From Eledone cirrhosa (Eukaryota): a DNA stretch of 64,000 nt. Under the pieces are notes generated by a model, which saw only the letters and a list, made by a program, of their open reading frames with translations, was not told the origin of the DNA and ran no database searches. The position numbers were made by a program, and so were the translations under genes. Of the stretch, positions 234 to 63,506 are shown in pieces. The first letter of the stretch is position 1. Each line of letters starts with the position of its first letter. Where the stretch lies: contig OZ024740.1 of NCBI GenBank assembly GCA_964016885.1, forward strand, positions 66,464,001 to 66,528,000. Direction: 5' to 3'.

Positions 234-289
234 ACTGCCTGATGAGGTCATAGCCATTCAATGGCTATCATCGAAATATATATAGCAGT
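234..289 (+). ncRNA. Type I hammerhead ribozyme in a PLE pLTR-like 3' fragment
   Basis: Stem I ACTGC/GCAGT; core CTGATGA at 239; stem II TAGCCAT/ATGGCTA; GAA; palindromic stem III ATATATAT; A17; AATAAA at 291; (TA)n from about 331. Confidence 0.88.
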
Positions 290-326
290 AAATAAAGGAT
301 TATGTGTTCATTGACTTATGTTGCGT

Positions 327-1153: not shown

Positions 1154-1862
1154 CTAAAACGGGTAAAATTCCCGAGATCCATGGACGAGTTCTCTCCAGC
1201 GGTCTCTGTCCCTCATTATTGCTGCCATGTCCTGCATTTCCAACAGACCAGTGTCTATCCTTAGGTCATCAACATACGTTAACCTCAGTCTCCTCTGTGT
1301 CACTTTTGATCTGACTCTTGGGATGCTCCCATACAGCTCTGAGTTTGTCATCCTCAGTGTATACTGATTAATGTTCAGAGCCATCCTCAGCATTCTCGTG
1401 TAGCACCCATCCACCATCTGAGTGAGTTTCTTGTTCAGTGTCCAAATCTCAGACCCATACAGCAGCACAGACACCAATACAGCAATGAAGAGGCGGATTT
1501 TCAGGTCTCTACGAAGGTCCGACTTCCACACCGATCTCAAGCTGTGGCACGCCGCCCAGGCCTTGCTCTTCCTCTCAACCACATCATCTTCCGTATTTCC
1601 AATCTTTGCTCCCAAATACAGGAAGTCCTCAACCAATTCCAGCGGCTTCCCGCCTACATTAGTGATCCCCTCTGGCTTCTCAACATTCTCTACCAGATAT
1701 TTTGTTTTTGTCTCATTCATTCTCAGCCCCACACTCATCGACATAGTCTCAACCTCCCGCATCAAATCCTCTGCCTCCTTCACTGTATTTGTCAGCAAAA
1801 TTATGTCGTCGTAAATTCAGCATCCGATACCTTTTTCGCCCTAACTCTCCTGCTCTGAGCCG
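1154..1862 (-). mobile_element. 5'-truncated RTE-type non-LTR retrotransposon (RT C-terminus), decayed
   Basis: ORF 1154-1798 with GLRMNETKTK, FLYLG, SVLLYGSEIWTL, R..WR; frameshifted F(A)DD motif near 1805-1815; both ends abut (TA)n. Confidence 0.9.
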
Positions 1863-1915
1863 TATATCTATATATATATACGTATATATCTATATGTATA
1901 TATATATATATATAA

Positions 1916-2255
1916 ATAGTATAAAGAAAACGAAAAATCAGTGATGCATCTAGACTTAATTTATTGCGTGTTACAATTGTTTCGCCGACAGGTAGCTCGA
2001 GAAATGGTCCTTGTATGGATATGGCAGATTCTACTTCTGCAGGTTCTTTCAGACACGGGTATTTCGTTTGGAGCAAAATGTATCGTGATAAAATTTGCTC
2101 CAAACGAAATACCCTTGTCTGGAAGGGCCTGCAGAGGTAGAATCAGCTAGATCCATACAAGGAGCATGTCTCGAGCTACCTGCCGGCGAAACAATTGTAA
2201 CACGCAATAAATTAAGTCCAGATGCATCACTAAATTTTTCGTTTCTTTATACTAT
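1916..2255. repeat. 340-bp palindrome (family P2) with a hammerhead 3' half on each arm
   Basis: Arms of about 165 bp centred near 2085; right arm has C-GAA-ACAATTGT-A (2187-2199) then AATAAA (2206). Confidence 0.9.
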
Positions 2256-2377
2256 CTACACTCTACTCTGCTGCATATCGAGTGCTAATTTTGGCATACC
2301 GCCTATGGAAGCACCATAGCTACCATTATACACAGCTATATATATATATATATATATAATGTTTAATATGGAAATAC

Positions 2378-2507
<130 letters not shown>

Positions 2508-2609
2508 GTACATTTACATATATATACGTACAGATACATATATATATATACTTATATATATATGCATATATATATATATACATATATATATATACACATA
2601 TATATATAT

Positions 2610-2690
<81 letters not shown>

Positions 2691-2693
2691 AAC

Positions 2694-2744
<51 letters not shown>

Positions 2745-2746
2745 AC

Positions 2747-2799
<53 letters not shown>

Positions 2800-2808
2800 T
2801 ATATACAT

Positions 2809-3015
2809 ATCATCATCATCATCATCATCATCAGGTTTAGCGTCCGTGTTCCACGCTTGCATGGGTTTGGACGGGGGTTTTCCCACTTGAGGCAAGAGTG
2901 GTTGTCTTGCTCGCATAGGACTGTCTGGCGGGTTTTCTACAGTTGGATGCCCTTCCTAACACCAACCACATTTACAGTGTGGGGCTGGGAGGTTTTTATC
3001 GTGTTGCCTACACGG
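2809..3015 (-). mobile_element. RTE LINE 3' UTR/tail fragment
   Basis: (CAT)n on + = (GAT)n tail; GGATGCCCTTCCTAACACCAACC core shared with the end of the LINE at 24590-24759 and with 32032-32308. Confidence 0.8.
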
Positions 3016-19643: not shown

Positions 19644-19727
19644 TTCCGTCTGACGAGGTGAGGATACCAGAATTAGTAGGATAAAACCCATCTAGCCGTA
19701 TTCCTCGGCGAAATATATATAATTGAA
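19644..19727 (+). ncRNA. Type I hammerhead with long stem II and weakened stem I
   Basis: CTGACGA at 19650; stem II GAGGATAC/GTATTCCTC; GAA-ATATATAT-A; AATAAA; (TA)n about 35 nt later. Confidence 0.72.
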
Positions 19728-24887: not shown

Positions 24888-25497
24888 CAATTGGGCTGAT
24901 TGAAGGAACGTTTCCTGAACCAGCAGTCTACCTTCAGATACCCGGACACTCGTTCATCCACGAAACTCGCGAGCCACGTATGGTCTCTCAAGTACTCAAG
25001 TATAGACTACTCCATTCAATCGAAAGTCCAAGCCATACGCAAAGGGAAATCCGACGTGTGGCTAATGTATTGACGAATGAATAACTATTCTAAAGAGATT
25101 AAGCAATATTGATTGCCTAAACACGAGATTTTAATTTTTCACACGTTGTCCACACGTCGCCAAACACCTATTGCATAATTACAAGGCTCCGGACTGATTC
25201 TTTGTAATTTTATTTTCAACCTAAACCCTTTTCGGACTTTCGCAGTTATCTCCCTTACACCTCTCGCACGCAGACTAGTATTGCCTGTGTGAAGTGACCG
25301 GGTTTCTGCGCATGCGCGTTCGCACGGTTGTCCTTCCTGTTCCTGTAACCATGCCCATTCCGAGCTGAAGATCCGCTAAGGTGAAACAATTGTTCTCGGT
25401 ATGGTGAACTAACTGTTGTGTAACCACTTCTACCTAACTCGTCCCTTTGACTGAGTGCTCTACCACTACGGATATTATCTTCCAGTGTTCCACCACT
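24888..25497 (+). mobile_element. Decayed 3' end of a second Naiad family (GIY-YIG C-terminus plus 3' UTR)
   Basis: Manual translation across stops and frameshifts: IGLIEGTF..STKLASHVWSLK..KPY..CG*CIDE..LNTR..CPHVAKHLL; HHR downstream. Confidence 0.75.
25355..25404 (+). ncRNA. Intact type I hammerhead
   Basis: CCATTCCGAG-CTGAAGA-TCC gctaa GGT-GAA-ACAATTGT-T-CTCGGTATGG. Confidence 0.9.
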
Positions 25498-26420: not shown

Positions 26421-26503
<83 letters not shown>

Positions 26504-26506
<3 letters not shown>

Positions 26507-26775
26507 CGAAGGAGGTGTGGTAAGGAACCAGATGGACCATAACGCACTAGAGTACTCAACACTTAGTGTAGTAGAGTGGGTAATAGGAAAAAATTTGACC
26601 CCGACGGCAGAGCTCAAGCCGTTTGGATGGCTATAGTCCAGAAATAGCCGTCGAAACGACGTGAGCTTTGCCGTCGGGGTCAAACTTTTTCCTATAACTC
26701 TCTCTACTAACCTAAGTGTTGAGTACTCTAGTGCGTTATGGTCCATCTGGTTCCTTACCATAAACTCCTTCGTTA
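26504..26775. repeat. Fully symmetric copy of palindromic family P1 in (TA)n
   Basis: Inverted arms of about 130 bp, TAACGAAGGAG...CTCCTTCGTTA. Confidence 0.92.
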
Positions 26776-26789
26776 TATATATATATAGT

Positions 26790-37019: not shown

Positions 37020-37221
37020 ATAAATGGAAGCTATCGCGTATTTTGTCCAAAGAAATTAAAGAAAATGATTTAGCCTGATTGTGGGGTTAAGAACCTTCGG
37101 AGAAATGGAAAGAGTTGAGTACGTCAATACTCATCTTTTTCCATTTCTCCAAGGGTTCTTAACCCCACTATCAGGCTAATTAATTTTCTTTAGTCAAAAT
37201 ACGGCGATAGCTTACATTTAT
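37020..37221. repeat. ~200-bp palindrome (family P3) between (TA)n tracts
   Basis: Arms TAGCCTGATTGTGGGGTTAAGAACC..GGAGAAATGGAAA / TTTCCATTTCTCC..GGTTCTTAACCCCACTATCAGGCTA; centre near 37123. Confidence 0.9.
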
Positions 37222-42620: not shown

Positions 42621-42625
<5 letters not shown>

Positions 42626-42812
42626 AACCAGTAAGACCCCGACAGCTGAGCTCAAGCCGTTTCGACGGCTAATTTTGTCCAGAATTAGCCGTCGAAACGG
42701 CTTGAGCTCAGCTGTCGGGGTCTTACTGGTTCCTATTACCCACTCTACTACCTCAAGTATTGAGTACTTTGGTGCGTTATGGTCCACCTGGTTCCTTACC
42801 ACATTTCCTTCG

Positions 42813-42815
<3 letters not shown>
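42621..42815. repeat. Palindromic family P1, asymmetric copy
   Basis: Perfect ~55-bp hairpin arms plus single-copy right extension ending CTTCGTTA. Confidence 0.92.
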
Positions 42816-42903
<88 letters not shown>

Positions 42904-47829: not shown

Positions 47830-47831
<2 letters not shown>

Positions 47832-48035
47832 GAACGAGTAGGACCCCGACGGCTGACCTCAAGCCGTTTCGACGGCTAATTCTGACTATTTTTTTAGTCC
47901 AGAATTAGCCGTTGAAACGGCTTGAGCTCAGCCGTCGGGGTCCTATTCGTTCCTATTACCTACTCTACTACCCTAAGTATTGAGTACTTTGGTGCGTTAT
48001 GGTCCACCTGGTTCCTTACCATATTTCCTTCGTTA
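47830..48035. repeat. Palindromic family P1, asymmetric copy
   Basis: Same hairpin and right extension as 42621. Confidence 0.9.
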
Positions 48036-57323: not shown

Positions 57324-57891
57324 GTTTTGCGAGGTTTTTTATATGAAATCGTGTGTCGAAACAGATATTGTTATATTTGGGGAGGGTCATATTTGCGTAA
57401 TATTGCCAGAATTAATAACAGAACACACTCACTGTTTGGTTGGTTTTCGCTTCTCGCTGTCTTTTATATATATATATCTGCGATCTAACTTACTCGGTCC
57501 TCAATGTTGCCATTGACTGACCGGCGGTCAAAAATAATACAGATACAATATAGACACAAACACATATATATAGTTTACATAATTTACATAAATCTTTCGT
57601 TGCACATCTGCAACATCGTCAGTGGTGTTATATTCATTGTTCCTCCTGTTGTGTTGTATGTCTACGCCATTTTTTTTTGTTCAGTCTGTCTATATATTTA
57701 TTTATTTATTTGCTTGTTTGTTTATCTTATTTTATTTTGTCTTCTTTGCGCATGCGTTTGCGTGTGTGTATAGTGTTATGTGTGATGTGTGACTAGTGTG
57801 TATAGTGTTGTGTCTGCTGGGTGACTAGTGTGTGTTTATGTGCTTGTGTATGTATTTATTTATCTTATTTTATTTAATTTTATTTACTTAT

Positions 57892-59484
57892 TTATACTTC
57901 TCTTAGGTCAGTGTTGTTTGTTTGGGTGTTGTTGTTGTTCCACTCATTCTTTCTGTTTAGCTTTGGTCTTCTAATTTCTATTTCACTGGCCTCTCTGATG
58001 TGCCTATCTGCTGGGTCATTCCTATGTTTAGATATTATTCTAATTTCTATGTTGTCTATGTTACCGTCGTGTTGTTGTCTAGCATGTTCGTATAGTACTG
58101 ATCCGTTTTTTCGTCCTTTTAGTTCCCCCCAGTGTTGGTCTATCCTTTCACCTATGCTACGAGCTGTCTCACCTATGTATGTTGTTGTCATGTTTCTGCA
58201 AGTACCCTCTGTACATCTTATGCTATAGACTACGTTTCTGGTTTTACAGTTTATCCGGGGGTTCACCTTACATATGATACATTTCCTATTAGTACAGTGG
58301 GTTTTCTTAAAAGGGTAGGTTTTGCTGATCAGGGATTTTATGGTGGTTCCTGGCTTTTGTACCACCTTTATTTTTAAGTGGGTCTTTCTCAGGGCCTTTC
58401 TACACTGGTTAGCTAATTTCCCTCCAGGGGTGGCATCCACAAACATGACACTCTGATATCTCTGGTTGTCGTACCATGATGTGGCCTTCCCTATCTTATG
58501 TCTAGCCCTATCTAAGCTATTCCATGATTTGCTCCTGTATAGTGGGAAAATTCCTTTCATGTCCAGTTCTATGAGGGTCTTATATTTTTCCATGGCTCCT
58601 TCGTATACTCTGACTCTGTCTCTTTGGTTGTAGCCAGAGAACTGCATGCGGTTGATGAAGTGTTGGATGTGTCCTTCCATTTCTGCTGGGTCGCACATGC
58701 TGGACACATTCTTCATCACTCGTACCAAATCTGCGATCAGAATATTAAACTTAGCACTACTGGACATTGCTGAGTTTTTGAGTATCAGGTATTTGGAGGC
58801 CATGGGTTTAGCATAGTGTGAGTGGAGAATTTGGGCTCTCTCGTCTATAGTGTTAATCCAGAGTTCTGTGTCTAATACAGGTAGTCTATTGTTAGGGTGT
58901 TTGGAAGGGAAGTCTATAGTTACAGTTATACTCTGGTGTATGGAATTAGCTATCTGCTGGATGCTTTCCATCGTGCTACGTTCTAAATTAAACTTGTTAG
59001 TGCTCTCTAGTGGGGGTGTTCTTATAACTATATTGATATCGTCTACATAACGAGAGTACATGATGAGGTCTATGGAGCTTTCATTAAGGAGATCTTTAAG
59101 TCTCCTTTCCCACCATACCATGAAAAGGTTGGCAACATCACCAGCTATGCTGACGCCGATGGCTGCTCCCTCATTTTGGGTGTAGATTTTCTCATTGAAC
59201 TTAAATATGTGGCCCTTTAGGGTAGTTTTCATACTAGCCCCTATTGCATGTGCGACCATTTTTCTTACCTGATCAGTGTTTTGGGGGGTCCGTATAGCTT
59301 TGGTCCACCCAATCCACCTTCCTATGGGAGTCTTTTTAGCCATTGAGGTTATGGTGGGGGGTCTACCTCTTATAGGTCTACTAGGGCAGAAACATCTAAG
59401 GTCATGGCTGTCTAGGTAGTCAGTGTCGTAGGTAAGTCTAAGTAGGAGGCCCAGTTCGTCTGTGTCGACGTCGCAGAACTCCAC
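57892..59484 (-). CDS. Open but N-terminally truncated PLE RT C-half plus Zn-linker plus GIY-YIG (530 aa)
   Basis: GAAIG..ANLFM, RYVDD, LPVLD, YAKPM, SGY, C..C..C..C, VVY..YIGET..ER..H; N-terminal RT motifs absent; clade assignment is tentative. Confidence 0.8.
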   Translation of the reverse strand: MEFCDVDTDELGLLLRLTYDTDYLDSHDLRCFCPSRPIRGRPPTITSMAKKTPIGRWIGWTKAIRTPQNTDQVRKMVAHAIGASMKTTLKGHIFKFNEKIYTQNEGAAIGVSIAGDVANLFMVWWERRLKDLLNESSIDLIMYSRYVDDINIVIRTPPLESTNKFNLERSTMESIQQIANSIHQSITVTIDFPSKHPNNRLPVLDTELWINTIDERAQILHSHYAKPMASKYLILKNSAMSSSAKFNILIADLVRVMKNVSSMCDPAEMEGHIQHFINRMQFSGYNQRDRVRVYEGAMEKYKTLIELDMKGIFPLYRSKSWNSLDRARHKIGKATSWYDNQRYQSVMFVDATPGGKLANQCRKALRKTHLKIKVVQKPGTTIKSLISKTYPFKKTHCTNRKCIICKVNPRINCKTRNVVYSIRCTEGTCRNMTTTYIGETARSIGERIDQHWGELKGRKNGSVLYEHARQQHDGNIDNIEIRIISKHRNDPADRHIREASEIEIRRPKLNRKNEWNNNNTQTNNTDLREV

Positions 59485-60297
59485 CTCACTCTCAAGGTGG
59501 TAGAAAACCAGGAACCACCATAAAATCCCTGATCAGCAAAACCTACCCTTTTAAGAAAACCCACTGTACTAATAGGAAATGTATCATATGTAAGGTGAAC
59601 CCCCGGATAAACTGTAAAACCAGAAACGTAGTCTATAGCATAAGATGTACAGAGGGTACTTGCAGAAACATGACAACAACATACATAGGTGAGACAGCTC
59701 GTAGCATAGGTGAAAGGATAGACCAACACTGGGGGGAACTAAAAGGACGAAAAAACGGATCAGTACTATACGAACATGCTAGACAACAACACGACGGTAA
59801 CATAGACAACATAGAAATTAGAATAATATCTAAACATAGGAATGACCCAGCAGATAGGCAAATCAGAGAGGCCAGTGAAATAGAAATTAGAAGACCAAAG
59901 CTAAACAGAAAGAATGAGTGGAACAACAACAACACCCAAACAAACAACACTGACCTAAGAGAAGTATAAATAAGTAAATAAAATTAAATAAAATAAGATA
60001 AATAAATTCATACACAAGCACATAAACACACACTAGTCACCCAGCAGACACAACACTATACACACTAGTCACACATCACACATAACACTATACACACACG
60101 CAAACGCATGCGCAAAGAAGACAAAATAAAATAAGATAAACAAACAAGCAAATAAATAAATAAATATATAGACAGACTGAACAAAAAAAAAATGGCGTAG
60201 ACATACAACACAACAGGAGGAACAATGAATATAACACCACTGACGATGTTGCAGATGTGTCTTTCAATAACCTTTCAGCTTGGCACAAGCAAATGCA

Positions 60298-60365
60298 ATA
60301 GCGGCGATGAATTAGTTTTGCGAGGTTTTTTATATGAAATCGTGTGTCGAATCAGATATTGTTAT
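60298..60365 (+). ncRNA. Decayed hammerhead of a separate pLTR, antisense to the adjacent PLE segment
   Basis: ATAGCGG-CGATGA..C-GAA(T/A)CAGAT-A-TTGTTAT; the copy at 57358 retains GAAA. Confidence 0.5.
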
Positions 60366-61372
60366 ATTTGGGGAGGGTCATATTTGCGTAATATTGCCAG
60401 AATTAATAACAGAACACACTCACTGTTTGGTTGGTTTTCGCTTCTCGCTGTCTTTTATATATATATATACATCTGCGATCTAACTTACTCGGTCCTCAAT
60501 GTTGCCATTGACTGACCGGCGGTCAAAAATAATACAGATACAATATAGACACAAACACATATATATAGTTTACATAATTTACATAAATCTTTCGTTGCAC
60601 ATCTGCAACATCGTCAGTGGTGTTATATTCATTGTTCCTCCTGTTGTGTTGTATGTCTACGCCATTTTTTTTTTGTTCAGTCTGTCTATATATTTATTTA
60701 TTTATTTGCTTGTTTGTTTATCTTATTTTATTTTGTCTTCTTTGCGCATGCGTTTGCGTGTGTGTATAGTGTTATTTGTGATGTGTGACTAGTGTGTATA
60801 GTGTTGTGTCTGCTGGGTGACTAGTGTGTGTTTATGTGCTTGTGTATGTATTTATTTATCTTATTTTATTTAATTTTATTTACTTATTTATACTTCTCTT
60901 AGGTCAGTGTTGTTTGTTTGGGTGTTGTTGTTGTTCCACTCATTCTTTCTGTTTAGCTTGGGTCTTCTAATTTCTATTTCACTGGCCTCTCTGATTTGCC
61001 TATCTGCTGGGTCATTCCTATGTTTAGATATTATTCTAATTTCTATGTTGTCTATGTTACCGTCGTGTTGTTGTCTAGCATGTTCGTATAGTACTGATCC
61101 GTTTTTTCGTCCTTTTAGTTCCCCCCAGTGTTGGTCTATCCTTTCACCTATGCTACGAGCTGTCTCACCTATGTATGTTGTTGTCATGTTTCTGCAAGTA
61201 CCCTCTGTACATCTTATGCTATAGACTACGTTTCTGGTTTTACAGTTTATCCGGGGGTTCACCTTACATATGATACATTTCCTATTAGTACAGTGGGTTT
61301 TCTTAAAAGGGTAGGTTTTGCTGATCAGGGATTTTATGGTGGTTCCTGGTTTTCTACCACCTTGAGAGTGAG

Positions 61373-62965
61373 GTGGAGTTCTGCGACGTCGACACAGACG
61401 AACTGGGCCTCCTACTTAGACTTACCTACGACACTGACTACCTAGACAGCCATGACCTTAGATGTTTCTGCCCTAGTAGACCTATAAGAGGTAGATCCCC
61501 CACCATAACCTCAATGGCTAAAAAGACTCCCATAGGAAGGTGGATTGGGTGGACCAAAGCTATACGGACCCCCCAAAACACTGATCAGGTAAGAAAAATG
61601 GTCGCACATGCAATAGGGGCTAGTATCAAAACTACCCTAAAGGGCCACATATTTAAGTTCAATGAGAAAATCTACACCCAAAATAAGGGAGCAGCCATCG
61701 GCGTCAGCATAGCTGGTGATGTTGCCAACCTTTTCATGGTATGGTGGGAAAGGAGACTTAAAGATCTCCTTAATGAAAGCTCCATAGACCTCATCATGTA
61801 CTCTCGTTATGTAGACGATATCAATATAGTTATAAGAACACCCCCACTAGAGAGCACTAACAAGTTTAATTTAGAACGTAGCACGATGGAAAGCATCCAG
61901 CAGATAGCTAATTCCATACACCAGAGTATAACTGTAACTATAGACTTCCCTTCCAAACACCCTAACAATAGACTACCTGTATTAGACACAGAACTCTGGA
62001 TTAACACTATAGACGAGAGAGCCCAAATTCTCCACTCACACTATGCTAAACCCATGGCCTCCAAATACCTGATACTCAAAAACTCAGCAATGTCCAGTAG
62101 TGCTAAGTTTAATATTCTGATCGCAGATTTGGTACGAGTGATGAAGAATGTGTCCAGCATGTGCGACCCAGCAGAAATGGAAGGACACATCCAACACTTC
62201 ATCAACCGCATGCAGTTCTCTGGCTACAACCAAAGAGACAGAGTCAGAGTATACGAAGGAGCCATGGAAAAATATAAGACCCTCATAGAACTGGACATGA
62301 AAGGAATTTTCCCACTATACAGGAGCAAATCATGGAATAGCTTAGATAGGGCTAGACATAAGATAGGGAAGGCCACATCATGGTACGACAACCAGAGATA
62401 TCAGAGTGTCATGTTTGTGGATGCCACCCCTGGAGGGAAATTAGCTAACCAGTGTAGAAAGGCCCTGAGAAAGACCCACTTAAAAATAAAGGTGGTACAA
62501 AAGCCAGGAACCACCATAAAATCCCTGATCAGCAAAACCTACCCTTTTAAGAAAACCCACTGTACTAATAGGAAATGTATCATATGTAAGGTGAACCCCC
62601 GGATAAACTGTAAAACCAGAAACGTAGTCTATAGCATAAGATGTACAGAGGGTACTTGCAGAAACATGACAACAACATACATAGGTGAGACAGCTCGTAG
62701 CATAGGTGAAAGGATAGACCAACACTGGGGGGAACTAAAAGGACGAAAAAACGGATCAGTACTATACGAACATGCTAGACAACAACACGACGGTAACATA
62801 GACAACATAGAAATTAGAATAATATCTAAACATAGGAATGACCCAGCAGATAGGCAAATCAGAGAGGCCAGTGAAATAGAAATTAGAAGACCAAAGCTAA
62901 ACAGAAAGAATGAGTGGAACAACAACAACACCCAAACAAACAACACTGACCTAAGAGAAGTATAA
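61373..62965 (+). CDS. Second copy of the truncated PLE RT-GIY-YIG ORF
   Basis: Differs from 57892-59484 at 4 residues visible in the ORF track (P/S, M/I, E/K, H/Q). Confidence 0.8.
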   Translation: MEFCDVDTDELGLLLRLTYDTDYLDSHDLRCFCPSRPIRGRSPTITSMAKKTPIGRWIGWTKAIRTPQNTDQVRKMVAHAIGASIKTTLKGHIFKFNEKIYTQNKGAAIGVSIAGDVANLFMVWWERRLKDLLNESSIDLIMYSRYVDDINIVIRTPPLESTNKFNLERSTMESIQQIANSIHQSITVTIDFPSKHPNNRLPVLDTELWINTIDERAQILHSHYAKPMASKYLILKNSAMSSSAKFNILIADLVRVMKNVSSMCDPAEMEGHIQHFINRMQFSGYNQRDRVRVYEGAMEKYKTLIELDMKGIFPLYRSKSWNSLDRARHKIGKATSWYDNQRYQSVMFVDATPGGKLANQCRKALRKTHLKIKVVQKPGTTIKSLISKTYPFKKTHCTNRKCIICKVNPRINCKTRNVVYSIRCTEGTCRNMTTTYIGETARSIGERIDQHWGELKGRKNGSVLYEHARQQHDGNIDNIEIRIISKHRNDPADRQIREASEIEIRRPKLNRKNEWNNNNTQTNNTDLREV

Positions 62966-63226
62966 ATAAGTAAATAAAATTAAATAAAATAAGATAAATA
63001 AATACATACACAAGCACATAAACACACACTAGTCACCCAGCAGACACAACACTATACACACTAGTCACACATCACACATAACACTATACACACACGCAAA
63101 CGCATGCGCAAAGAAGACAAAATAAAATAAGATAAACAAACAAGCAAATAAATAAATAAATATATAGACAGACTGAACAAAAAAAAAATGGCGTAGACAT
63201 ACAACACAACAGGAGGAACAATGAAT

Positions 63227-63279
63227 ATAACACCACTGACGATGTTGCAGATGTGCAACGAAAGATTTATGTAAATTAT
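63227..63279 (+). ncRNA. Hammerhead in the 3' UTR of the Nematis-like PLE (minus copies 57579-57631, 60574-60626)
   Basis: CTGACGA-T-GTTGCA gatg TGCAAC-GAA-AGATTT-A; short interrupted stem I (ATAA..CA / TG..TTAT). Confidence 0.72.
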
Positions 63280-63506
63280 GTAAACTATATATATGAGTTT
63301 GTGTCTATATTGTATCTGTATTATTTTTGACCGCCGGTCAGTCAATGGCAACATTGAGGACCGAGTAAGTTAGATCGCAGATATATATATATAAAAGACA
63401 GCGAGAAGCGAAAACCAACCAAACAGTGAGTGTGTTCTGTTATTAATTCTGGCAATATTACGCAAATATGACCCTCCCCAAATATAACAATATATGTATA
63501 TATATT

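What the first reader, a model, noticed from the sequence alone, without database searches (positions are those of the whole stretch)
1916..2255. MITE-like palindrome that looks like a hammerhead 3' half folded back on stem II
Seen: a 340-bp palindrome whose outward-facing arms each end C-GAA-ACAATTGT-A, a few nt, AATAAA and a ~45-nt tail, next to TA-rich sequence. This is the 3' half of the HHR-polyA-(TA)n module found intact elsewhere in the window (the same ACAATTGT stem III occurs at 25386). The 5' core (CTGANGA) is absent, and the mirror copy sits in its place. Established: PLE pLTRs carry HHRs and PLEs often make inverted 5' segments. Inference: cDNA stalled in a long stem II, self-primed on the hairpin and copied back. 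That would give a class of TA-targeted, retro-derived false MITEs, and it is my best candidate for an undescribed system here.
Basis: partly seen in the sequence, partly recalled or inferred. Interest (0 to 1): 0.85.

Follow-up and report, generated by a model that had tools for sequence, protein, structure and literature searches.

The report
Penelope retroelement palindrome mimicking a MITE
This 340-base palindrome is two head-to-head copies of the end of a Penelope-like retrotransposon, with an extra 83-base tail on one copy only, and it likely forms when both ends of the cut chromosome are extended at once on the element's RNA, so it imitates a small DNA transposon without being one.

Summary
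The palindrome is real (arms 89% alike), but the element runs on to about 2338 through an 83-nt tail on the right arm only. It is the pseudo-LTR (pLTR) of a (TA)n-targeted Penelope-like element with Hydra-clade motifs; long copies carry RT and GIY-YIG. It is not a DNA MITE.

A hammerhead-like 5' half (stem I, CUGAAAGA, long stem II) lies inside each arm, and the centre lies about 30 nt upstream of it.

Across 300 loci: 3' ends fall at two sites 83 nt apart; 70 of 72 abutting pairs carry the tail on exactly one arm; partner arms share subfamily marks; 5' ends pile up at one AGT start. A sister family (10,629 exact 30-mer hits) repeats this in 40 of 42 pairs, and its centre sits 29 nt behind a TATA box, inside hammerhead loop II.

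Best model (inferred, about 60%): two cDNAs primed from the two target ends at the two start sites run off the RNA's 5' end and join head to head. Inverted pLTRs with a one-sided tail are in print; I did not find this mechanism. No RNA evidence was obtained.

The parts
1863..1915 (.). (TA)n target, left flank
   Evidence: Tandem Repeats Finder row 1863-1923; sequence
1916..2084 (-). Inverted pLTR arm without tail (family positions about -168 to 0); outer end flush with (TA)n
   Evidence: matches the 3' end of long PLE copies L031 and L032
2085..2255 (+). Direct pLTR arm (positions -170 to 0); 15 differences in 167 compared bases from the left arm
2256..2338 (+). 83-nt tail, on one arm only; in full-length copies it is the stretch between the pLTR end and the ORF
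   Evidence: 27 pLTR-tail-ORF junctions
2076..2095 (.). Head-to-head junction (2084/2085) at the family's 5'-end hotspot, parent CCCC-AGTGATAAAA; predicted transcription start at A(-171)
   Evidence: 35 of 144 pattern-selected terminal arms start at -174 to -163; junction lists
2045..2057 (-). Hammerhead-like 5' half in the left arm: stem I strand CGTGT plus core CTGAAAGA (one base longer than CUGANGA)
   Evidence: 131 of 182 arms read CTGAAAGAA; the five stem I pairs are kept in 162-171 of 175-176 arms; coordinates
2119..2126 (+). Same core in the right arm, decayed to CTGGAAGG
2187..2204 (+). Hammerhead-like 3' half: C-GAAA, CAATTG stem III, predicted GUA cleavage after 2199, stem I strand ACACG
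   Evidence: Sequence; pair counts; activity untested
1967..1984 (-). Hammerhead-like 3' half in the left arm
2206..2211 (+). AATAAA (mirror copy at 1960-1965 on the - strand); possible polyadenylation signal
   Evidence: function inferred
2337..2810 (.). (TA)n target, right flank

Best explanation
The element is an ORF-less insertion of a (TA)n-targeted Penelope-like retrotransposon, made of two head-to-head pLTR copies with an 83-nt tail on one, and it likely arises when both ends of the cut target prime reverse transcription at two fixed sites on the element's RNA and both cDNAs run off at the predicted transcription start and are joined. Shown: the parent, the two 3' sites (0 and +83), the one-tail rule, the shared 5' hotspot, and the repeated occurrence of such palindromes in several subfamilies. 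Inferred: (1) the RT-endonuclease cuts both strands of (TA)n; (2) one end primes at site 0 and the other at +83, probably on one RNA held by a protein dimer, the trailing RT displacing the leading cDNA; (3) on a linear RNA that starts at A(-171) both cDNAs end there, giving arms of about 170 and 250 nt; (4) repair joins their 3' ends with a few bases lost, added or shared; (5) long and partial-tandem copies come from a template without that 5' end (circular or tandem RNA). The palindromes are by-products made afresh each time, not a family that moves as a unit.
For: Parent: long copies read pLTR-tail-ORF-3'UTR-pLTR, with RT motifs (QLDIDSYY, GSSDS, YRDD) and a C-terminal nuclease. ESM Atlas leads are RVT_1 (on 20% of one cluster) and GIY-YIG (34% of one cluster). 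3' ends: 147 tail-less, 144 tailed and 3 other among 294 terminal segments; 271 of 291 are followed by (TA)n. One-tail rule: 70 of 72 abutting pairs (2 with both tails, 0 with none); 48 of 50 in the earlier subset, binomial p 1e-12 against one half; 40 of 42 in the sister family. Not copies of each other: the tail-less arm is longer in 21 and the tailed arm in 15 of 36 asymmetric pairs. Same source: partners differ at 5.4% of 16 diagnostic sites (54 pairs) against 38% for non-partners (6041 pairs). 5' hotspot: 35 of 144 pattern-selected arms start within 12 nt; 32 hotspot arms are solo or paired with a non-hotspot arm. Not a plain RT stall: 0 of 17 ORF-linked pLTRs that reached the zone stopped in it, against 35 of 94 terminal arms (Fisher p 0.0012). 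Sister family: 69 of 104 arms start at -62 to -53; the parent has TTAGTC with its A at -60 and TATTTAAA 29 nt upstream. Literature: a Poseidon PLE cuts and extends both strands, starts RT at two sites that bound the tail, is predicted to be a dimer and uses uncleaved RNA (PMC11167929, parts 1-2 of 4 read).
Against: No RNA data: the transcription start is inferred from DNA ends alone. Family 1 has no TATA box 29 nt upstream of its hotspot, and it has a 7-bp hairpin (GGGTGTT/AACACCC) just upstream that could stop RT (sequence). The hotspot window was chosen after seeing the data, and one ORF-linked start lies at -160, just outside it. In the sister family one ORF-linked pLTR does start at the hotspot (L345). 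Partner concordance is also predicted by copy-back, by gene conversion, or by one source being active at a time. One palindrome (L125) has arms nearer to other copies (4 and 6 differences) than to each other (12), which points to two templates. Later deletions at the centre could create the asymmetries. PMC11167929 saw no strand difference in start site and did not test coupling. An extra G before A(-171), expected from a cap, is seen in 7 of 42 listed junctions, only about 3 of them clearly untemplated.
Confidence: 0.6

Rival explanations
1. One cDNA runs to the RNA 5' end, folds back or switches onto itself and copies back; the hairpin is then trimmed by staggered cuts at sites 0 and +83 and inserted.
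For: Explains partner concordance and, if the trimming is staggered, the one-tail rule. Self-priming was proposed for head-to-head PLE junctions (PMC3846280, passages), and nuclease resolution was proposed for the tail (PMC8557442, passages).
Against: It needs either strand to be cut at either site, since the tail-less arm is the longer in 21 of 36 pairs. Many junctions show 0-2 shared bases or added bases, with no priming stem. L125 has arms of two subfamilies. The tail was shown in vitro to mark two RT start sites.
Confidence: 0.2
2. Same twin priming, but the centre is fixed by RT stalling at a local RNA hairpin, not by the RNA's 5' end.
For: A GGGTGTT/AACACCC hairpin ends 2-3 nt upstream of the family 1 hotspot; family 1 has no TATA box at the expected place.
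Against: 0 of 17 ORF-linked pLTRs stop there. The hairpin's 5' strand lies in a variable T-run. The sister family's hotspot lies in a loop behind a TATA box.
Confidence: 0.08
3. The palindrome is a non-autonomous element that is itself transcribed and moved in trans as one unit.
For: High copy number. The palindrome label is more clustered than shuffled on a tree (28 changes against a mean of 41), and the commonest centre spelling recurs in 3 of 28.
Against: At least ten different centre joins among 28 symmetric palindromes. Palindromes share haplotypes with long copies in several subfamilies, and starred branches force at least 3 changes. Arm lengths vary continuously. Partner arms inflate the clustering.
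Confidence: 0.07
4. One reading: cDNA stalls in hammerhead stem II, self-primes on that hairpin and copies back, so the mirror replaces the 5' core.
For: Parents have a CTGATGA at about -293 whose midpoint with GAAA falls near -177. In the sister family the centre lies in loop II and the 5' core is missing from the palindromes.
Against: That CTGATGA has no stem I partner and varies among 12 parents; the consensus fold has an unfavourable covariation term, with 1 of 58 pairs changed on both sides. A core with a perfect 5-bp stem I lies inside each arm. Sister-family palindromes lack the 5' part of loop II.
Confidence: 0.04
5. MITE of a DNA transposon with long terminal inverted repeats.
For: Inverted arms with a variable interior of 0 to over 4 kb, in TA sites.
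Against: The interiors examined are 5'-truncated PLE bodies with RT and nuclease motifs (L031, L032 and the visible part; that output was cut for about two of 20 loci). The ends are asymmetric (tail), and direct and solo copies are common.
Confidence: 0.01

Closest known systems
Hydra clade of C-terminal EN+ Penelope-like elements (PMC8557442; passages read)
   Same: RW[K/R] and DKT motifs, CxCx5C linker, CxxC and CxH around the nuclease end, (TA)n insertion, pLTRs, an inverted 5'-truncated copy, a tail often at one end only
   Different: The tail is 83 nt (80 in the sister family) against the 30-40 bp given for PLEs. The unit is about 5 kb against generally under 3 kb. The hammerhead is non-canonical. 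ORF-less palindromes with a near-fixed centre are not described in the passages read.
Poseidon PLE PAc of the green anole (PMC11167929; parts 1-2 of 4 and a term search)
   Same: Two fixed 3' ends bounding a tail at the pLTR-ORF junction; AT-rich target; hammerhead cut site not seen as a copy boundary
   Different: Different clade. The text read does not discuss inverted insertions or coupling of the two start sites, and here the hammerhead-like motif lies upstream of the ORF.
Adineta vaga Penelope elements with inverted pLTRs (PMC3846280; passages)
   Same: Head-to-head pLTRs, a tail on one of them, TATA and Inr-like motifs in the pLTR
   Different: Those were explained by self-priming, possibly on an antisense template, and are low-copy with target-site duplications.
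Minimal type I hammerheads of PLE pLTRs (PMC4209133; passages and Discussion)
   Same: Short palindromic stem III, 5-bp stem I, enlarged stem II. Pairs of motifs 100-700 bp apart on opposite strands were noted in Schistosoma. The U3-A8 core variant matches the sister family. Circular templates were proposed for tandems.
   Different: The family 1 core has one extra base, A-C in place of G10.1-C11.1, and an interrupted stem II of about 60 nt.
L1 twin priming (recalled, not read)
   Same: The second target end primes a second cDNA on the RNA, giving an inversion
   Different: In L1 the two cDNAs cover different parts of the RNA; here they cover the same part from two fixed sites 83 nt apart.
Non-LTR retrozymes (bioRxiv 10.64898/2026.07.22.740005; part 1 of 5 read)
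   Same: Non-coding, derived from PLE pLTRs, hammerhead-bearing
   Different: Retrozymes are head-to-tail tandems; these are head-to-head pairs.

Membership tests
Penelope-like element (EN+) | Single ORF with RT followed by a GIY-YIG nuclease | tested here: met
   Motifs in broken frames of parents; Atlas leads RVT_1 and GIY-YIG. Pfam gave no hit on 7 parent fragments and sub-threshold GIY-YIG hits on 2 of 10 homologues. No unbroken ORF was seen.
Penelope-like element (EN+) | pLTRs from partial tandems, inverted 5' copy, optional tail | tested here: met
Penelope-like element (EN+) | RT groups with PLE RTs on a tree with named references | not tested
   No named reference PLE proteins were available; 3928 unnamed homologues at E<=0.001
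Hydra clade | RWK-type motif, and DKT in place of DKG | tested here: met
   MRWR and SDKT in the four aligned parent fragments, one reading MRWH; DK[T/S] in 28 of 31 long homologues
Hydra clade | [quoted passage not shown] | tested here: met
   CNCRAGTRC, CRLCLHE and TCRH read; the single C in IYKC is not a two-cysteine motif (by eye)
Hydra clade | Insertion into (TA)n | tested here: met
   271 of 291 terminal ends
Hydra clade | Canonical hammerhead in the pLTR | tested here: not met
   The family core is CUGAAAGA with A-C at 10.1/11.1; no Rfam hammerhead hit. Hammerhead-like only. The clade assignment therefore rests on protein motifs and target.
Type I hammerhead ribozyme | Three stems round the core, with NUH at the cut | tested here: inconclusive
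   Stems I, II and III can pair in most arms; 7 of 8 common variants avoid the 51 constrained positions of 91 (p 0.012; structure drawn by eye). No compensatory changes in the pair counts, and folding z-scores are near 0.
Type I hammerhead ribozyme | Self-cleavage | not testable with these tools
   Needs an assay; 0 of 66 arms start at -59 to -52
MITE (DNA transposon derivative) | Symmetric ends and a transposase-coding partner with the same ends | tested here: not met
   One-sided tail in 70 of 72 pairs; the partner is an RT element
MITE (DNA transposon derivative) | Fixed target-site duplication | tested here: inconclusive
   Cannot be read inside (TA)n
Non-LTR retrozyme | Head-to-tail tandem of hammerhead units | tested here: not met
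   The unit here is a head-to-head pair

The most novel reading that the evidence does not exclude
Penelope-like elements insert by coupled twin priming: a dimer takes one RNA, primes one target end at each of two fixed sites, and so builds the inverted pLTR and the one-sided tail in one step. On capped linear RNA this yields only short MITE-like palindromes that mark the transcription start to the base, while productive long copies come from circular or tandem RNA. In the sister family the promoter sits inside hammerhead loop II, so the ribozyme is complete only at the transcript's 3' end. Thousands of apparent MITEs in such genomes would be these retro-products.
Probability: 0.4. Interest if true: 0.75.

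Novelty: new variant of a known kind. Interest (0 to 1): 0.5.

Why it matters
How PLEs make inverted repeats and a one-sided tail is named as an open question in PMC8557442 (passage). The counts here turn it into specific predictions for an existing in vitro system: the two start sites are used once each per insertion, normally on one template, and the palindrome centre is the RNA's 5' end.

For annotation, short TA-flanked palindromes with an extra 80 nt on one side should be filed as PLE products, not MITEs. One such family has 10,629 exact hits of a 30-mer in this genome. Their centres would map PLE promoters without RNA data.

Tried and rejected
Rfam scans: no hammerhead among the rows shown for the window, nor for parent pLTRs of either family.

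Protein searches: Pfam blank on parent fragments; two word-based protein searches blank; PDB sequence search gave nothing significant.

Expression: no RNA holder listed. Contigs of three runs of one sample laid on the element show only that related copies are abundant there.

Single-sequence folds: z-scores of -1.2 to +0.5, no support by themselves.

Hammerhead cut site as the 5' boundary: the first pattern sample could not show it because the pattern spans the site. A second sample downstream gave 0 of 66.

Upstream CTGATGA (-293) as the true core: no stem I partner and no supported long stem.

Splice acceptor at CCCCAG|T: many junctions keep the AG.

A first de-duplication merged different loci and was redone; only searches are used for arm counts.

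A DNA search for the sister family returned nothing because common words are skipped; a pattern search was used instead.

Earlier findings of the scan: three look-ups, all empty.

No structure or complex prediction was run.

Full report
Observation. The window lies at G000:C1:66464001-66528000 in a 3.0-Gb assembly. It is probably a cephalopod, but that is a recalled resemblance and was not tested. Bases 1916-2255 match their own reverse complement at 89.5%, with GAAACAATTGTA and AATAAA in both arms and (TA)n on both sides. A search with the right arm had 2256 first-look candidates, of which 40 were scored. Two exact patterns have 177 and 264 matches, with 0 for the reversed controls. The element is larger than reported: copies end either at ...TATACTAT (position 0 = base 2255) or 83 nt further on.

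Parent. Arm pairs about 4 kb apart (L031, L032) enclose a 5'-truncated coding stretch and a long 3' region that ends in the arm. Twenty 10-kb loci round the best ORF matches (20 of the 40 listed) showed full units of pLTR, tail, ORF, 3' UTR and pLTR (output partly cut). The protein fragments carry MRWR, SDKT, QLDIDSYY, GSSDS, YRDD, CNCx5C, YIG, CxxC and CxH. These match the features given for the Hydra clade in PMC8557442 (passages). Pfam was blank on the fragments; the Atlas gave RVT_1 and GIY-YIG leads; 3928 unnamed homologues exist. Every ORF seen is broken. So the arm is a pLTR, the tail is the stretch before the ORF, and no transposase was seen.

Hammerhead. Inside each arm is CGTGT-CTGAAAGA at -141 to -129, an interrupted stem II, GAAA, CAATTG and GTA-ACACG. 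131 of 182 arms read CTGAAAGAA, and the commonest variants (CTGAAGGA 15, CTGAATGA 6) change only the spare position. The five stem I pairs hold in 162-171 of about 176 arms. Seven of 8 common variants avoid the 51 constrained positions of 91 (p 0.012, structure drawn by eye). Against this reading: one extra core base, A-C for G10.1-C11.1, no compensatory changes, weak folding scores and no Rfam hit. It is hammerhead-like and may be impaired. Its cut site is not a copy boundary (0 of 66). The centre of the palindrome lies 30 nt upstream of stem I. A CTGATGA at about -293 has no stem I partner and no supported long stem.

3' ends. Among 321 distinct segments in 300 loci, 147 end at 0, 144 at the tail end, 27 run on into the ORF and 3 end elsewhere. 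Both sites share ACTAT(A)CTAC-RCTC in the parent. Of 72 abutting head-to-head pairs, 70 have the tail on exactly one arm, 2 on both and 0 on neither; independent choice would give about half. The loci came partly from similarity searches that favour symmetric palindromes. The subset with an exact pattern, which is blind to the tail, gave 30 of 32.

5' ends. Among 144 pattern-selected terminal arms, 35 start at -174 to -163, 59 run past it and 50 are shorter. The selection came from the first 100 listed places of each pattern, all on contigs C1-C4, and not all of those were fetched. The hotspot also appears in solo copies and opposite arms of other lengths (32 arms). The furthest base that needs no help from the partner is A(-171) of CCCC-AGTG, an initiator-like site (consensus recalled). 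An extra G before it occurs in 7 of 42 junctions, about 3 clearly untemplated; this is a weak hint of a cap. Of 27 pLTRs in front of the ORF, 17 ran past the zone and none stopped in it (Fisher p 0.0012 against 35 of 94); one stopped at -160. The window was set after seeing the data. This favours a separate RNA that begins at -171 over a stall, though a 7-bp hairpin lies just upstream.

Relation of the arms. Partners differ by 3.6% (59 pairs) against 7.9% for non-partners, and by 5.4% against 38% at 16 diagnostic sites, also when 2-4.6 kb apart. In 36 asymmetric pairs the tail-less arm is the longer in 21; such arms cannot be plain copies of each other unless trimmed or deleted later. L125 seems to join two subfamilies. 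The 28 symmetric centres examined show at least ten different joins. On a 127-row tree of 166 columns with weak support, palindromic arms need 28 label changes (shuffled mean 41; at least 3 forced by starred branches), so they are clustered but not one clade.

Replication. A second family in the window (42621-42816, 47830-48035, 26503-26776, 513-645) has 10,629 exact 30-mer hits. In 70 loci from the first 42 Mb of C1, 40 of 42 pairs have the 80-nt tail on one arm; 1 has none and 1 is cut by the locus edge. Its parent also has RWR, DKT and CxCx5C. Of 104 arms, 69 start at -62 to -53 and 22 further up, several of those by alignment spill into the partner. The parent has TATTTAAA at -89 and TTAGTC with A at -60. 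The parent folds unprompted into a three-way junction, ACCCC-UUGAGAA-stem II-GAAA-stem III-GUC/GGGGU, whose U3-A8 core matches a variant in PMC4209133 (passage). TATA and start lie in loop II, so here the palindromes do lack the 5' core, but they also lack the 5' part of the loop. One ORF-linked pLTR in this family starts at the hotspot (L345), which cuts against a strict two-template split.

Mechanism. PMC11167929 (parts 1-2 of 4 read) shows a PLE protein cutting and extending both target strands, starting RT at two internal sites that bound the tail, predicted as a dimer, and using uncleaved RNA. Combined with the counts above, the simplest account is coupled twin priming at the two sites, run-off at the RNA's 5' end and head-to-head joining (inferred, 0.6). 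Copy-back with staggered trimming is the main rival (0.2). Long tandems from circular RNA were proposed in PMC4209133 (Discussion).

Novelty. Inverted pLTRs with a tail at one end are in print (PMC8557442, PMC3846280; passages), as are opposite-strand hammerhead pairs 100-700 bp apart and a promoter in the pLTR (PMC2377424; passages). I did not find the strict one-tail rule, a fixed centre at the start site, a promoter inside loop II, or PLE-made MITE mimics in nine searches (listings only, except the papers named). A 2026 octopus repeat paper does not use the words palindrome or hammerhead in its main text (PMC13282606; term search). The library lacks most subscription papers, and I read no supplements; those of PMC8557442 and PMC11167929 may bear on these points. 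Verdict: a new variant of a known kind, useful mainly because it makes the open PLE insertion mechanism testable.

Noticed in passing
window 42621-42816, 47830-48035, 26503-26776, 513-645: Second, far more abundant PLE-derived palindrome family: arms of about 60 nt and an 80-nt tail on one side (both sides at 26503-26776). Its parent has a U3-A8 hammerhead with a TATA box and initiator-like site inside loop II.
   Followed up: yes
window 234-290 and 19645-19720: Hammerhead-like motifs with a canonical CTGANGA core, long stem II and TATATA stem III, followed by AATAAA and (TA)n; other PLE families.
   Followed up: no
window 25360-25400; 28745 (+); 42305 (-): Further short hammerhead-like motifs next to (TA)n ends.
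   Followed up: no
L345 (G000:C1:25028650-25030250): Sister-family copy in which a hotspot-starting arm is joined to the middle of the ORF of another hotspot-starting unit, as if RT jumped templates after run-off.
   Followed up: partly
L125 (G000:C1:25996580-25999771): Palindrome whose two arms resemble different subfamilies, a candidate two-template insertion.
   Followed up: partly
window 57698-63487: Nested, near-identical (92-100%) inverted and direct repeats over about 6 kb.
   Followed up: no
window 37020-37221: Another palindrome of about 200 bp between TA runs, 79% self-complementary.
   Followed up: no
L064 6410-8377 (+): A different PLE with a CxxxxCxxC linker (Neptune-like by motif) next to a copy of this family.
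   Followed up: no
window 1280-1862: Fragment of a repeated LINE-like RT region just left of the palindrome; it matches L005 at 93% over 584 bases.
   Followed up: no
L063, L064, L069 (ORF, after the RT thumb): This family's ORF has a long G/T/R/N/P-rich insert between RT and nuclease that is much shorter in homologue P0002, recalling the linker inserts of rotifer PLEs.
   Followed up: no
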